Of a stretch of DNA of 64,000 bases, positions 40,401 through 43,400 are shown piece by piece. The position numbers were made by a program. How positions within the stretch are numbered: the stretch's first letter is position 1; every line of letters begins with the position of its first letter. Location of the stretch: the NCBI RefSeq assembly GCF_057098645.1, contig NZ_CM169472.1, one strand, 5' to 3'.

Positions 40401-43400
40401 TCGGCTCGACCAAAGTCCAGCACCTTATTTAGCTTACAAATACCGGCATTGTTAACCAGAATATCAACTGTTCCGAAACGCTCACAGCAAGCAGCGATTA
40501 TCTTCTGCGGCGCGCCTTCTGCGGTGATATCCACCTGCATGAAGTCCACCTCAACACCCTGATTTTCAATCATTTCCTTTGTTTCGCCGTTATCTTTGAC
40601 AAAACTTGGAATAAAGACATTTGCGCCTGCTTTGGCCAACGCCATGGCAAATGCCTGGCCTAAACCGCTATTCCCGCCGGTAACAATTGCGGTTTTACCT
40701 TTCAGGGAGAAAAAATCCATTGAGAACGCATTGAGAGATTCGATTGACATAGTTAGCTCCAATTTCCGTAAGGCAAAAAAAAAGAAAGGTAACTTCCCCC
40801 GCGAGAGGGAAGTTACCTTTCTCATTATCTCTGGTAACTGGAGATAATTTTTAGCATAAGGACATAACTGCTAATGTGATCGTAATCACAGTGTGATATT
40901 CGTATTGTCAAATAATTTTAAAAAGCAGAAGCGTGATTACTCTCACACAACACCTCTGCTTTCCATGTTATTTATTATTTCAATTACTAGAGACCTGAGA
41001 AAAGTAATCCACCTGAAAGGGCGGCTTACTTTTCTCTTTTTTTTGTCTATTACAAATGGGAATACGATATGCAACACAACTCATATCGCCGTTGGATAAC
41101 CCTCGCGATAATTAGTTTTAGCGGCGGCGTTAGTTTCGACCTGGCTTATTTACGTTATATTTATCAAATTCCCATGGCGAAATTTATGGGATTCAGCAAT
41201 ACCGAGATAGGTTTAATAATGAGTACCTTTGGTATTGCAGCTATTATTCTTTATGCCCCCAGCGGCGTTATTGCCGATAAATTCTCACATCGCAAAATGA
41301 TTACTTCCGCGATGATCATTACCGGATTACTGGGTCTGTTAATGGCAACGTATCCACCGCTGTGGGTAATGCTCTGTATTCAGGTCGCATTTGCGATAAC
41401 GACGATTTTAATGCTGTGGTCGGTGTCGATTAAAGCCGCATCGTTGCTTGGCGATCATAGCGAGCAAGGGAAAATTATGGGCTGGATGGAAGGGCTGCGC
41501 GGCGTCGGTGTAATGTCGCTGGCGGTGTTTACCATGTGGGTCTTTTCTCGCTTTGCACCGGATGACAGCGCCAGCCTAAAAACGGTCATAATTATCTACA
41601 GTGTGGTTTACATCTTGTTGGGGATTCTGTGCTGGTTTTTTGTTAGCGATAACAACAACCTGCGCAGTGCCAATAACGAAGAAAAACAATCATTCCAGCT
41701 TAGCGACATCCTGGCCGTTTTGCGCATCAGCACCACCTGGTATTGCAGCATGGTGATTTTTGGTGTCTTCACCATCTACGCCATTCTGAGTTACTCCACC
41801 AACTATCTGACCGAAATGTATGGCATGTCGCTGGTGGCGGCGAGCTACATGGGGATTGTGATCAACAAAATCTTCCGCGCGCTGTGCGGCCCACTTGGCG
41901 GCATTATCACCACCTACAGTAAAGTGAAATCCCCTACCCGCGTGATCCAAATCCTTTCCGTACTCGGCCTGCTGGCGTTAACTGCCCTGCTCGTCACGAA
42001 CTCTAACCCGCAATCGGTCGCGATGGGGATTGGCCTGATTTTACTGCTGGGATTCACCTGTTACGCCTCACGCGGGCTGTACTGGGCCTGCCCTGGCGAA
42101 GCAAGAACACCGTCTTACATTATGGGCACCACGGTAGGTATTTGTTCGGTGATTGGATTCCTGCCGGATGTCTTCGTTTACCCCATTATCGGCCACTGGC
42201 AAGACACCCTGCCCGCAGCAGAAGCCTACCGCAATATGTGGCTGATGGGCATGGCGGCGCTTGCCATGGTGATTGTCTTTACCTTTTTGCTGTTCCAAAA
42301 AATTCGTACTGCTGATAGCGCCCCCGCAATAGCTAGCAGCAAGTAAGCCAGGAAAATTACAGGAGAAAAATCATGTCGAAAAAATACATCATAGGGATTG
42401 ATGGCGGAAGTCAGAGCACAAAAGTGGTGATGTACGATCTGGAAGGTAATGTGGTTTGCGAAGGTAAAGGCTTATTGCAGCCGATGCACACGCCAGATGC
42501 CGATACCGCAGAACATCCTGACGACGATTTATGGGCATCATTATGTTTTGCCGGTCACGATTTGATGAGTCAGTTTGCCGGGAATAAAGAAAATATTGTC
42601 GGTATTGGTCTGGGATCCATCCGTTGCTGCCGTGCGTTATTGAAAGCCGATGGCACGCCAGCTGCGCCATTGATTAGCTGGCAGGATGCACGCGTAACGC
42701 GTCCCTACGAACACACTAATCCTGACGTGGCCTATGTCACCTCTTTTTCGGGTTATCTGACGCATCGCTTAACCGGCGAGTTTAAAGACAATATCGCCAA
42801 CTATTTTGGTCAGTGGCCGGTGGATTATAAGAGCTGGGCATGGAGTGAAGATGCCGCAGTCATGGAGAAGTTTAATATCCCCCGTCATATGCTGTTTGAT
42901 GTGCAAATGCCAGGCACTGTTCTTGGACAGATCACACCTCAAGCCGCGCTGGCGACACATTTCCCGACAGGGCTGCCGGTTGTTTGTACCACCAGTGATA
43001 AACCGGTAGAAGCTCTGGGAGCCGGATTACTGGATGATGAAACGGCGGTGATTTCTCTTGGCACCTACATCGCGCTGATGATGAACGGTAAAGCACTGCC
43101 GAAAGATCCGGTGGCGTACTGGCCGATTATGTCTTCTATTCCGCAAACATTGCTGTATGAAGGTTACGGTATTCGCAAAGGCATGTGGACGGTGAGCTGG
43201 CTGCGCGACATGCTAGGCGAGTCGTTAATTCAGGATGCCAGGGCGCAGGATCTTTCACCGGAAGATTTACTCAACAAAAAAGCTTCTTGTGTGCCGCCAG
43301 GCTGTAATGGTCTGATGACGGTGCTGGACTGGCTGACCAACCCGTGGGAACCCTACAAACGTGGGATTATGATCGGCTTTGATTCCAGCATGGATTACGC

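What the first reader, a model, noticed from the sequence alone, without database searches (positions are those of the whole stretch)
40872..40893. Perfect CRP consensus half-sites in the ygcW/yqcE divergent regulatory region
TGTGA-N6-TCACA occurs exactly at 40875..40890, between divergent ygcW (start 40750) and yqcE (start 41069). A CRP site fits catabolite-repressed expression of this transporter/kinase/oxidoreductase island and marks where its promoters are.
Basis: seen in the sequence. Interest (0 to 1): 0.4.

Follow-up and report, generated by a model that had tools for sequence, protein, structure and literature searches.

The report
Known CRP site, ygcW/yqcE promoters
The perfect CRP motif is a real, already published, high-affinity binding site for E. 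coli's glucose-starvation regulator; it most likely switches on the ygcW promoter, a second overlooked site serves yqcE, and both transcripts then meet a conserved stop signal that probably needs the island's own antiterminator protein to pass.

Summary
TGTGATCGTAATCACA lies at 40875-40890 and is the only perfect TGTGA-N6-TCACA in the window (0.02 expected by chance). It is the best CRP matrix hit, at 18.5 bits.

It is not new. PhyloScan predicted it in 2007. CRP ChIP-seq found it bound in ETEC in 2015. A promoter gel shift plus expression profiling listed yqcE-ygcE as "Crp activation" in 2021. Footprint-seq gave a Kd of 1.7 nM in 2026.

The interpretation needs refining. A second CRP site (CGTGATTACTCTCACA, 40932-40947) lies 57 bp away. 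In 56 Enterobacterales species, site 1 stays 131-144 bp from the ygcW ATG. Site 2 stays about 129-148 bp from the yqcE ATG in most species. The distance between the two sites varies from 36 to 173 bp.

Each site centre lies 26-28 nt upstream of a conserved TGnTA extended -10. That places each at about -41.5, the Class II position. So the perfect site most likely serves ygcW, and yqcE has its own site.

Each promoter is followed at +1 by a conserved leader of about 70 nt with antiterminator and terminator pairings. Published Term-seq 3' ends map in both leaders. The leader travels across phyla with YgcP-like (GlpP-family) proteins. YgcP-dependent antitermination is an inference.

The parts
40875..40890 (.). 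CRP site 1, TGTGATCGTAATCACA (22-bp site 40872-40893). Centre 40882.5, which is -41.5 relative to the predicted ygcW start and -98.5 relative to the predicted yqcE start.
   Evidence: 18.45 bits. Published binding: ChIP-seq and Footprint-seq Kd 1.7 nM. Half-sites at least 95% conserved in 33 species. Stays 131-144 bp from the ygcW ATG in 56 species.
40932..40947 (.). CRP site 2, CGTGATTACTCTCACA. Centre 40939.5, which is -41.5 relative to the predicted yqcE start.
   Evidence: 13.63 bits. A site of at least 12 bits is present at this place in 56 of 56 species. It stays about 129-148 bp from the yqcE ATG except where the leader-to-ATG stretch carries an insertion.
40848..40856 (-). Predicted extended -10 of the ygcW promoter: TG (40856-40855), c, TAAAAA (40853-40848). 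Predicted +1 about 40841. No recognisable -35 (CATTAG).
   Evidence: TGnTA lies 26-28 nt from the CRP centre in 56 of 56 species and is a conserved island. The transcription start is not mapped.
40966..40974 (+). Predicted extended -10 of the yqcE promoter: TG (40966-40967), t, TATTTA (40969-40974). Predicted +1 about 40981.
   Evidence: TGnTA lies 26-27 nt from the CRP centre in 55 of 56 species and is a conserved island. The transcription start is not mapped.
40771..40841 (-). ygcW leader (attenuator). Antiterminator strands AGUUACC (40839-40833) and GGUAACU (40817-40811). Terminator stem 40823-40805 with 40800-40782. U run 40783-40775.
   Evidence: -34 kcal/mol, z = -6.4. Covariance model R1 scores 83.4 bits. 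Covariation. Published Term-seq 3' end at window 40788, intrinsic terminator score 15.8, not in a Rho termination region.
40980..41047 (+). yqcE leader (attenuator). Antiterminator strands AUUACU (40983-40988) and AGUAAU (41003-41008). Terminator 40997-41036. U run 41037-41044.
   Evidence: -22 kcal/mol. R1 scores 75.5 bits. Published Term-seq 3' end at window 41033, intrinsic terminator score 11.4, not in a Rho termination region.
39965..40750 (-). ygcW, a short-chain dehydrogenase. It is the first gene of the leftward run ygcW-ygcU-ygcS-ygcR-ygcQ.
41069..43851 (+). yqcE (MFS transporter, 41069-42346) and ygcE (FGGY kinase, 42373-43851).
34674..35249 (+). ygcP, a GlpP-family protein (PF04309, 'glycerol-3-phosphate responsive antiterminator'). 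It is the candidate factor acting on both leaders.
   Evidence: E = 1.4e-62 over the full length. Synteny with the leaders.

Best explanation
The motif is a genuine high-affinity CRP-cAMP site, and its binding is already published. The rest of this statement is inference from sequence and comparison.

The 318-bp ygcW/yqcE spacer holds two mirror-image regulatory modules. Each module consists of:
- a CRP site centred at -41.5, overlapping a missing -35;
- an extended -10 (TGnTA...);
- a conserved leader of about 70 nt that starts at +1.

This is the Class II layout, in which CRP bound next to RNA polymerase recruits and activates it. The perfect site (site 1) drives the leftward ygcW promoter. 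The weaker site 2 (40932-40947) drives yqcE-ygcE.

By default the leader RNA folds into a strong intrinsic terminator, so short transcripts end before the genes. A short upstream strand (AGUUACC or AUUACU) can pair instead with the 5' arm of the terminator. That alternative hairpin is weak, so it probably has to be stabilised by a factor.

The likely factor is YgcP, the island's GlpP-family protein, once it has bound a phosphorylated pathway intermediate. If so, expression needs both signals: no preferred sugar (cAMP-CRP) and the specific substrate (YgcP).
For: CRP binding
- The motif is unique in the window and scores 18.45 bits.
- In vivo CRP ChIP-seq peak at ygcW/yqcE in ETEC H10407, with exactly this sequence (PMC4287617).
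- In vitro Kd 1.7 nM (PMC12871828).
- yqcE-ygcE listed as a validated gene with 'Crp activation', from expression profiling and a gel shift (PMC8085971).
- PhyloScan ranked the region second.

Assignment of each site to its own promoter
- 56 species have the divergent ygcW/yqcE pair with a normal-sized spacer, 317-465 bp long. Site 1 is 131-144 bp from the ygcW ATG in all 56.
- Site 2 is 128-154 bp from the yqcE ATG in 50 of the 56. The six exceptions (166-256 bp) all have a longer stretch between the leader's T run and the ATG.
- The site-to-site distance varies from 36 to 173 bp.
- The centre-to-TG distance is 26-28 nt in 56 of 56 species on the ygcW side and 55 of 56 on the yqcE side, which gives -41.5 or -42.5.
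- The footprint shows conserved islands at the half-sites, the TGnTA motifs and the leaders. The stretch 40891-40930 between the modules is not conserved.
- In Firmicutes homologues of the cluster, the same leader sits 6-7 nt after a consensus TTGACA-17-TATACT promoter. This supports the view that the leader starts at +1.

Attenuators
- Terminator-like hairpins with U runs lie in both leaders.
- Published 3' ends map in both leaders in LB, with intrinsic terminator scores of 15.8 and 11.4 (above 3 is suggestive) and no Rho termination.
- Antiterminator helix: 91% of cells paired, against at most 54% when the partner is slid. Two pairs show compensatory changes: GC 58 / AU 21 and UA 54 / CG 22.
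- Terminator helix: 92% paired, with 7 pairs changed on both sides.
- The antiterminator alone folds at only -6.7 and -1.4 kcal/mol, against -34 and -22 for the terminators.

Link to YgcP
- YgcP matches PF04309 over its full length.
- ygcP stays in the cluster even where gene order is rearranged.
- YgcP-like proteins (54-63% identical) in Clostridium, Sporomusa, Thalassobacillus, Fodinisporobacter, Vibrio and Photobacterium all sit in the same cluster of SDR, FGGY kinase and FAD oxidase genes. Model R1 finds the same leader one or two times in each.
Against: - No mapped transcription start was available. The -41.5 geometry rests on predicted -10 elements.
- I found no data on CRP dependence of ygcW itself.
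- ChIP-seq and the gel shift cannot separate two sites 57 bp apart, so occupancy of site 2 is not shown.
- Shimada et al. predicted different promoters here: ygcW TTGACA-16-TGTGAT and yqcE TTCTCA-18-GATAAT. Their ygcW -35 hexamer already varies within Escherichia and is absent in the other genera shown. I did not check the predicted yqcE promoter.
- The published 3' ends lie 3-5 nt inside the 3' arm of each stem, not in the U run. This suggests trimming after termination but is not explained.
- There is no direct evidence that YgcP binds these RNAs. YgcP is only 28% identical to B. subtilis GlpP. Model R1 matches the B. subtilis glpD leader only weakly (14.9 bits, E = 0.085).
- The covariation rests on few independent events among related sequences.
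Confidence: 0.75

Rival explanations
1. One shared CRP site: the perfect site alone activates both divergent promoters. It would act from an upstream Class I-type position on yqcE.
For: It is by far the strongest site in the spacer. It is the only one reported by ChIP-seq and Footprint-seq. yqcE-ygcE is the operon shown to be CRP-activated.
Against: A second site is conserved in 56 of 56 species and stays about 129-148 bp from the yqcE ATG in most of them. Its distance from site 1 varies from 36 to 173 bp. Site 1 is at about -98.5 from the predicted yqcE start. By my count that is half a helical turn off the usual Class I positions (-93.5 and -103.5; own knowledge).
Confidence: 0.12
2. CRP acts here as a repressor or roadblock. 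For example, it could occlude the sigma-70 promoter predicted by Shimada et al. for ygcW, whose -10 (TGTGAT) lies inside site 1.
For: An RpoD holoenzyme SELEX peak lies in this spacer, and that promoter was predicted there (PMC3946193).
Against: Its TTGACA hexamer (40912-40907) becomes TTGATA or TTGATT within Escherichia and is absent in the other genera shown. The surrounding stretch 40891-40930 is poorly conserved. The only published direction of regulation is activation. The conserved geometry is that of an activator site.
Confidence: 0.06
3. The leaders are self-sufficient riboswitches, or are controlled by a factor other than YgcP. CRP's role would be unchanged.
For: The leaders have conserved unpaired purine tracts (AGAG ... 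GAGAAA) and a terminator/antiterminator switch. No YgcP-RNA binding data exist.
Against: Only about 30 nt lie upstream of the terminator, closed by a weak helix of 6-7 bp. The element is found next to a YgcP-like gene in every distant genome examined. B. subtilis GlpP targets have the same layout of promoter, GlpP site and 5'-UTR terminator (PMC9604022).
Confidence: 0.15
4. The motif is a chance palindrome with no function.
For: None beyond the fact that such 16-mers can arise by chance (2 of 100 shuffled windows have one).
Against: Published binding in vivo and in vitro. The half-sites are at least 95% conserved across 33 species, in a spacer that otherwise varies. The 30-mer around it is present in 5064 of 5426 complete E. 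coli genomes and identical in 4743.
Confidence: 0.01

Closest known systems
Class II CRP-dependent promoters with an extended -10, such as galP1 (own knowledge: Busby and Ebright 1999 review, which is also cited in PMC8085971)
   Same: The CRP site is centred at about -41.5 and overlaps a poor -35. A TGn extended -10 is present. Activation is expected through direct contact with RNA polymerase.
   Different: Here two such promoters lie back to back, each with its own site, 57 bp apart in E. coli. The transcription starts are predicted, not mapped.
B. subtilis glpD, glpFK and glpTQ control by GlpP, with CcpA catabolite control at glpFK (PMC9604022)
   Same: A PF04309 protein is encoded in the cluster. 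An intrinsic terminator lies in the 5' UTR just after the promoter. A purine-rich GAGA...GAGA tract lies at the 5' foot of the terminator. A global catabolite regulator is layered on top.
   Different: YgcP is only 28% identical to GlpP. It belongs to a separate subfamily tied to a cluster of SDR, FGGY kinase and FAD oxidase genes, not to glp genes. The leader model barely matches glpD (14.9 bits). The ligand is probably not glycerol-3-phosphate. Catabolite control is by CRP activation rather than CcpA repression.
E. coli bglGFB operon (own knowledge)
   Same: An E. coli catabolic operon that combines a CRP-dependent promoter, H-NS binding and leader terminators overcome by an operon-encoded RNA-binding antiterminator. 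H-NS is flagged in this spacer too.
   Different: BglG is a PRD/CAT-domain protein that binds a RAT hairpin and is controlled by PTS phosphorylation. YgcP is a PF04309 protein, and its presumed target has no RAT-like match in Rfam.
Other CRP targets listed in the same published screens, such as garP/garD, ascG/ascF and ycfQ/bhsA
   Same: Near-consensus sites in intergenic regions, found by ChIP-seq or Footprint-seq before any promoter-level study.
   Different: Nothing essential. This site belongs to that set.

Membership tests
CRP-cAMP binding site (CRP regulon) | Match to the palindromic consensus TGTGA-N6-TCACA, or a high matrix score | tested here: met
   Perfect match, 18.45 bits, top 5% of sites bound in vivo.
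CRP-cAMP binding site (CRP regulon) | CRP binds the DNA in vitro | not testable with these tools
   Reported in the literature: Footprint-seq Kd 1.7 nM with this exact sequence (PMC12871828), and a gel shift of the yqcE promoter fragment (PMC8085971).
CRP-cAMP binding site (CRP regulon) | CRP occupies the site in vivo | not testable with these tools
   Reported in the literature: a high-confidence ChIP-seq peak at ygcW/yqcE in ETEC H10407 (PMC4287617). I found no K-12 in vivo data.
CRP-cAMP binding site (CRP regulon) | Flanking gene expression depends on CRP | not testable with these tools
   yqcE-ygcE is listed as 'Crp activation'. I found no data for ygcW.
Class II CRP-dependent promoter | Site centred near -41.5 relative to the transcription start | tested here: inconclusive
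   Met relative to the predicted extended -10. The centre-to-TG distance is 26-28 nt in 56 of 56 species on the ygcW side and 55 of 56 on the yqcE side. No mapped start was obtainable.
Class II CRP-dependent promoter | Recognisable -10 with a poor or absent -35 overlapped by the site | tested here: met
   TGcTAAAAA and TGtTATTTA are present. The -35 positions read CATTAG (ygcW side), a poor match. In Firmicutes homologues the same place holds a consensus TTGACA.
GlpP-type protein-mediated antitermination | A PF04309 protein is encoded with the target operons | tested here: met
   YgcP matches PF04309 at E = 1.4e-62. Synteny holds in Enterobacterales and in seven distant genomes.
GlpP-type protein-mediated antitermination | An intrinsic terminator lies in the 5' UTR between the promoter and the first gene | tested here: met
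   Published 3' ends with intrinsic terminator scores of 15.8 and 11.4.
GlpP-type protein-mediated antitermination | The leader resembles the B. subtilis glpD and glpFK leaders | tested here: inconclusive
   R1 gives 14.9 bits, E = 0.085, on the glpD leader. Only the GAGA...GAGA tract at the foot of the terminator is shared, by eye.
GlpP-type protein-mediated antitermination | The protein binds the leader RNA in the presence of its ligand and causes read-through | not testable with these tools
   Inference only.
Any Rfam family (riboswitch, leader or sRNA) | A covariance-model match at the family's gathering score | tested here: not met
   Best match 25.9 bits against a threshold of 100. Nothing passes over 40500-41300.

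The most novel reading that the evidence does not exclude
The two leaders are members of an undescribed cis-regulatory RNA family, a terminator/antiterminator switch with the motif AGUUACU-AGAG-N-GAGAAAAGUAAC. This family has moved together with a distinct YgcP subfamily of GlpP-like antiterminators and a cluster of SDR, FGGY kinase, FAD oxidase and ETF genes through Bacilli, Clostridia, Negativicutes, Vibrionaceae and Enterobacterales. In the Gammaproteobacteria examined, a CRP site at -41.5 occupies the place held by the consensus -35 in the Firmicutes promoters. On this reading the perfect CRP motif marks how an imported, RNA-controlled pathway was wired into the host's catabolite control, and YgcP would be E. 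coli's only GlpP-type antiterminator.
Probability: 0.5. Interest if true: 0.6.

Novelty: already known. Interest (0 to 1): 0.4.

Why it matters
The CRP site itself adds nothing new. It is already in three experimental data sets and one prediction.

What the follow-up adds is a concrete, testable wiring diagram for an uncharacterised E. coli gene island (ygcNOP, ygcQRSUW, yqcE-ygcE):
- two Class II CRP promoters, each with its own site;
- two conserved attenuators whose short transcripts are already visible in published Term-seq data, with no regulatory element noted for them;
- an orphan GlpP-family protein as the likely specific regulator.

A default terminator would also explain poor expression even when CRP is active. 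To study the island, the inducer, or ygcP overexpression, would probably have to be supplied. The leader RNA is conserved across phyla and absent from Rfam, which makes it a candidate new RNA family.

Tried and rejected
Transcription start data were not obtainable.
- Thomason dRNA-seq and SEnd-seq papers are not held.
- The Cappable-seq and SMRT-Cappable-seq supplements have nothing at this locus.
- The Conway 2014 supplement is not held.
- The supplements of PMC8085971 (predicted site for yqcE) and of the Footprint-seq preprint (possible entry for site 2) are not held.

Other dead ends and corrections.
- Rfam gave no family at threshold.
- My first coordinate offset (2859529), taken from the Footprint-seq centre, was wrong. 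The K-12 annotation gives 2859523. The Footprint-seq centre is therefore about 6 bp off the motif centre, within that method's stated resolution.
- The first matrix script timed out.
- A first regular expression for the leaders was too strict and was replaced.
- A first tblastn for ygcN/O/P used coordinates off by one frame and was redone.
- Searching model R1 over the window and 59 loci (786 kb) found no third copy of the leader. Every weaker hit is the opposite strand of the same hairpins.
- Literature searches for ygcP and the other ygc genes found no functional study.

Rejected ideas.
- The ygcW promoter predicted by Shimada et al.: its -35 is not conserved.
- FNR or CRP-S readings of the site: the half-sites are GTGA/TCAC, not TTGA or TGCGA (read directly from the sequence; own knowledge of those consensus sequences).
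Full report
OBSERVATION

The sequence TGTGATCGTAATCACA lies at 40875-40890. 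It is the only perfect TGTGA-N6-TCACA in the window. Shuffled windows give 0.02 matches on average. The ORF list and the annotation of matching E. coli records confirm the flanking genes: ygcW (39965-40750, - strand) and yqcE (41069-42346, + strand). The window is K-12-like. Window position = NC_000913.3 coordinate - 2859523, with one mismatch in 501 bp.

I built a position weight matrix from 104 CRP sites bound in vivo in ETEC (PMC4287617, Table 1), leaving out the three that lie in this window.
- The finding's site scores 18.45 bits. It is the best hit in the window and in the top 5% of the bound sites. It is reached by 1 of 300 null windows.
- The second and fourth hits (8965 in nlpD and 29147 in cysI) are themselves published ChIP-seq targets, so the matrix behaves sensibly here.
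- The third hit is a second site in the same spacer, CGTGATTACTCTCACA at 40932-40947 (13.6 bits).

WHAT WAS ALREADY KNOWN

- PhyloScan (2007) ranked yqcE/ygcW second among its CRP predictions.
- CRP ChIP-seq in ETEC H10407 lists a high-confidence peak at ygcW/yqcE with the motif TGTGATTACGATCACA, the reverse complement of the finding.
- Footprint-seq (2026 preprint) lists acTGTGAttacgaTCACAtta at ygcW/yqcE with an estimated Kd of 1.7 nM. It calls the site novel relative to 308 previously described or predicted sites.
- A 2021 study lists yqcE-ygcE among "novel and validated" CRP regulon members, regulation "Crp activation". It used expression across carbon sources, a crp null, and gel shifts of promoter fragments.
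- Shimada et al. found an RpoD holoenzyme SELEX peak and flagged H-NS in this spacer.

So the site, its binding, and activation of one flanking operon are all in the literature.

WHICH PROMOTER DOES THE SITE SERVE?

I fetched 59 loci encoding YqcE relatives, one genome per species. The divergent ygcW/yqcE pair is conserved from Escherichia to Serratia, Rahnella, Pantoea and Erwinia. In 56 species the spacer is of normal size (317-465 bp).

Those spacers have two CRP-like sites. Sites of at least 12 bits are present in 55 of 56 spacers on the ygcW side and 56 of 56 on the yqcE side.
- Site 1 stays 131-144 bp from the ygcW ATG.
- Site 2 stays 128-154 bp from the yqcE ATG in 50 of the 56. The six exceptions (166-256 bp) all have a longer stretch between the leader's T run and the ATG.
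- The distance between the two sites ranges from 36 to 173 bp.

Each site centre lies 26-28 nt upstream of the T of a conserved TGnTA motif. This holds in 56 of 56 species on the ygcW side and 55 of 56 on the yqcE side. Read as an extended -10 (TG at -15/-14), that puts the CRP centre at -41.5 or -42.5, the Class II position.

In the window:
- ygcW side: TG at 40856-55, TAAAAA at 40853-48, predicted +1 about 40841.
- yqcE side: TG at 40966-67, TATTTA at 40969-74, predicted +1 about 40981.

The footprint over 33 species shows conserved islands at exactly these places: both pairs of half-sites, both TGnTA motifs and both leaders. The stretch 40891-40930 between the modules is not conserved.

The perfect site is therefore most likely the Class II activator site of the ygcW promoter, and yqcE has its own site. 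Each site lies at -98.5 from the other promoter. I read that as out of phase with Class I positions (own knowledge).

In the E. coli population, the 30-mers around both sites occur in 5064 of 5426 complete genomes. They are identical in 4743 (site 1) and 4866 (site 2).

THE LEADERS

Directly after each predicted start lies a strong terminator-like hairpin with a U run.
- ygcW leader: 19 bp, -34 kcal/mol.
- yqcE leader: -22 kcal/mol.

Published Term-seq data (PMC7815308, supplementary files 1 and 3, LB at OD 0.4) list 3' ends at K-12 2900311(-) and 2900556(+). These are window 40788 and 41033, which lie 38 and 36 nt upstream of the two ORFs. They are classed as not in a Rho termination region. 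Their intrinsic terminator scores are 15.8 and 11.4, where above 3 is suggestive. No known regulatory element is noted for them. Short leader transcripts therefore exist in vivo.

The two leaders are related to each other in inverted orientation. Aligning 85 distinct leaders (alignment A1) shows near-invariant tracts: (A/G)UUAC(C/U), AGAG, GAGAAA(A/G)GU.

Two mutually exclusive helices are supported.
- Terminator: 92% of cells paired, with 7 pairs changed on both sides.
- Upstream antiterminator, AGUUACC with GGUAACU: 91% paired, against at most 54% in slid controls. Compensatory changes are GC 58 / AU 21 and UA 54 / CG 22. One column covaries with both of its alternative partners.

The antiterminator alone is weak (-6.7 and -1.4 kcal/mol). 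Termination should therefore be the default, and a factor should be needed to pass it.

A covariance model of the leader (R1) finds exactly two copies per locus, always in this spacer, and none elsewhere in 786 kb. Rfam has no match at threshold.

THE LIKELY FACTOR

ygcP (34674-35249) is a full-length PF04309 "glycerol-3-phosphate responsive antiterminator". It stays in the cluster even in Serratia, Pantoea and Erwinia, where the gene order is different.

Proteins 54-63% identical to YgcP occur in Clostridium, Sporomusa, Thalassobacillus, Fodinisporobacter, Vibrio, Photobacterium and one unidentified 5.7-Mb genome. In all seven genomes examined:
- the gene sits in the same cluster: SDR, FGGY kinase and FAD oxidase, sometimes with ETF, plus a transporter of MFS, BCCT or OpuA type;
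- R1 finds the same leader one or two times, at 24-65 bits, upstream of cluster genes.

In the Firmicutes the leader follows a consensus TTGACA-17-TATACT promoter by 6-7 nt, and there is no CRP-like site. In the two Vibrionaceae a CRP-like site (7.7-13.8 bits) and a TGATATAA motif occupy the same places as in E. coli. This supports two inferences: the leader starts at +1, and the CRP sites are a gammaproteobacterial addition in place of the -35.

The sequences printed also show the antiterminator pairing kept with compensatory changes: AAUUACU/AGUAAUU in Sporomusa and L067, and GUUGCU/AGCGAAC in Fodinisporobacter.

Canonical B. subtilis GlpP is only 28% identical to YgcP. Its glpD leader matches R1 weakly (14.9 bits). 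By eye, the two share a GAGA...GAGA tract at the foot of the terminator. The B. subtilis system has the same logic: a promoter, a GlpP site, a terminator in the 5' UTR, and catabolite control (PMC9604022).

YgcP-mediated antitermination at these leaders is an inference. I put it at about 0.5-0.6.

VERDICT

The feature is a real CRP site and is already known.
- the region has two sites;
- the perfect one belongs to ygcW;
- CRP is probably only the first of two gates.

The interesting and apparently undescribed part lies next to the finding: the paired attenuators and their cross-phylum link to a YgcP subfamily. I found no paper on ygcP or on these leaders in the held library.

Noticed in passing
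window 40771-40841 (-) and 40980-41047 (+): Two conserved terminator/antiterminator leaders, related to each other in inverted orientation, sit directly downstream of the two CRP-dependent promoters. They are not in Rfam. Published Term-seq 3' ends map in both.
   Followed up: yes
L062-L068 (Clostridium, Vibrio, Photobacterium, Sporomusa, Thalassobacillus, an unnamed 5.7-Mb genome, Fodinisporobacter): The YgcP subfamily, the cluster of SDR, FGGY kinase and FAD oxidase genes (with or without ETF) and the leader RNA occur together across phyla. The transporters there are often of BCCT or OpuA type, which may hint at the unknown substrate.
   Followed up: partly
window 40788 and 41033: The published Term-seq 3' ends lie 3-5 nt inside the 3' arm of each terminator stem rather than in the U run. 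This may reflect exonuclease trimming back to the G+C-rich core. It is unexplained.
   Followed up: no
L035 5870-6000 (Limnobaculum eriocheiris): The ygcW/yqcE spacer is only 130 bp. It holds a single hairpin flanked by A9 on one side and T9 on the other, with no CRP sites or promoters. It looks as if recombination between the two inverted leaders deleted the whole control region.
   Followed up: partly
L007 and L008, about 5862-5992 (Klebsiella spallanzanii, Citrobacter youngae): An insertion of about 130 bp lies between the yqcE attenuator and the ATG. It is a dispersed repeat, with a median of 10 copies per E. coli genome at about 83% identity, in unannotated places. It looks ERIC/IRU-like.
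   Followed up: partly
window 8965-8980 and 29147-29162: The other top CRP matrix hits in the window (inside nlpD and cysI) coincide with published intragenic CRP ChIP-seq peaks in ETEC.
   Followed up: partly
window 40862: This is the only difference from MG1655 in 501 bp around the spacer (A here, G in K-12). It lies between site 1 and the predicted ygcW -10.
   Followed up: no
L060 and L051: A 'Planctomycetota MAG' contig is 100% identical to E. coli over the matched part of yqcE and carries both leaders at the window's scores. A 'Chryseobacterium sp.' contig carries an Enterobacteriaceae-like ygc cluster. Both probably reflect contamination or mislabelling in the public assemblies.
   Followed up: no
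window about 44491-44884: A CRISPR repeat array is annotated just downstream of ygcE (from the HB101 annotation). Term-seq 3' ends fall at its repeats.
   Followed up: no
window 40819-40848 (+) and 40912-40885 (-): The sigma-70 promoters predicted for this spacer by Shimada et al. 2014 differ from the conserved extended -10 promoters found here. The predicted ygcW -35 is not conserved outside E. coli.
   Followed up: partly
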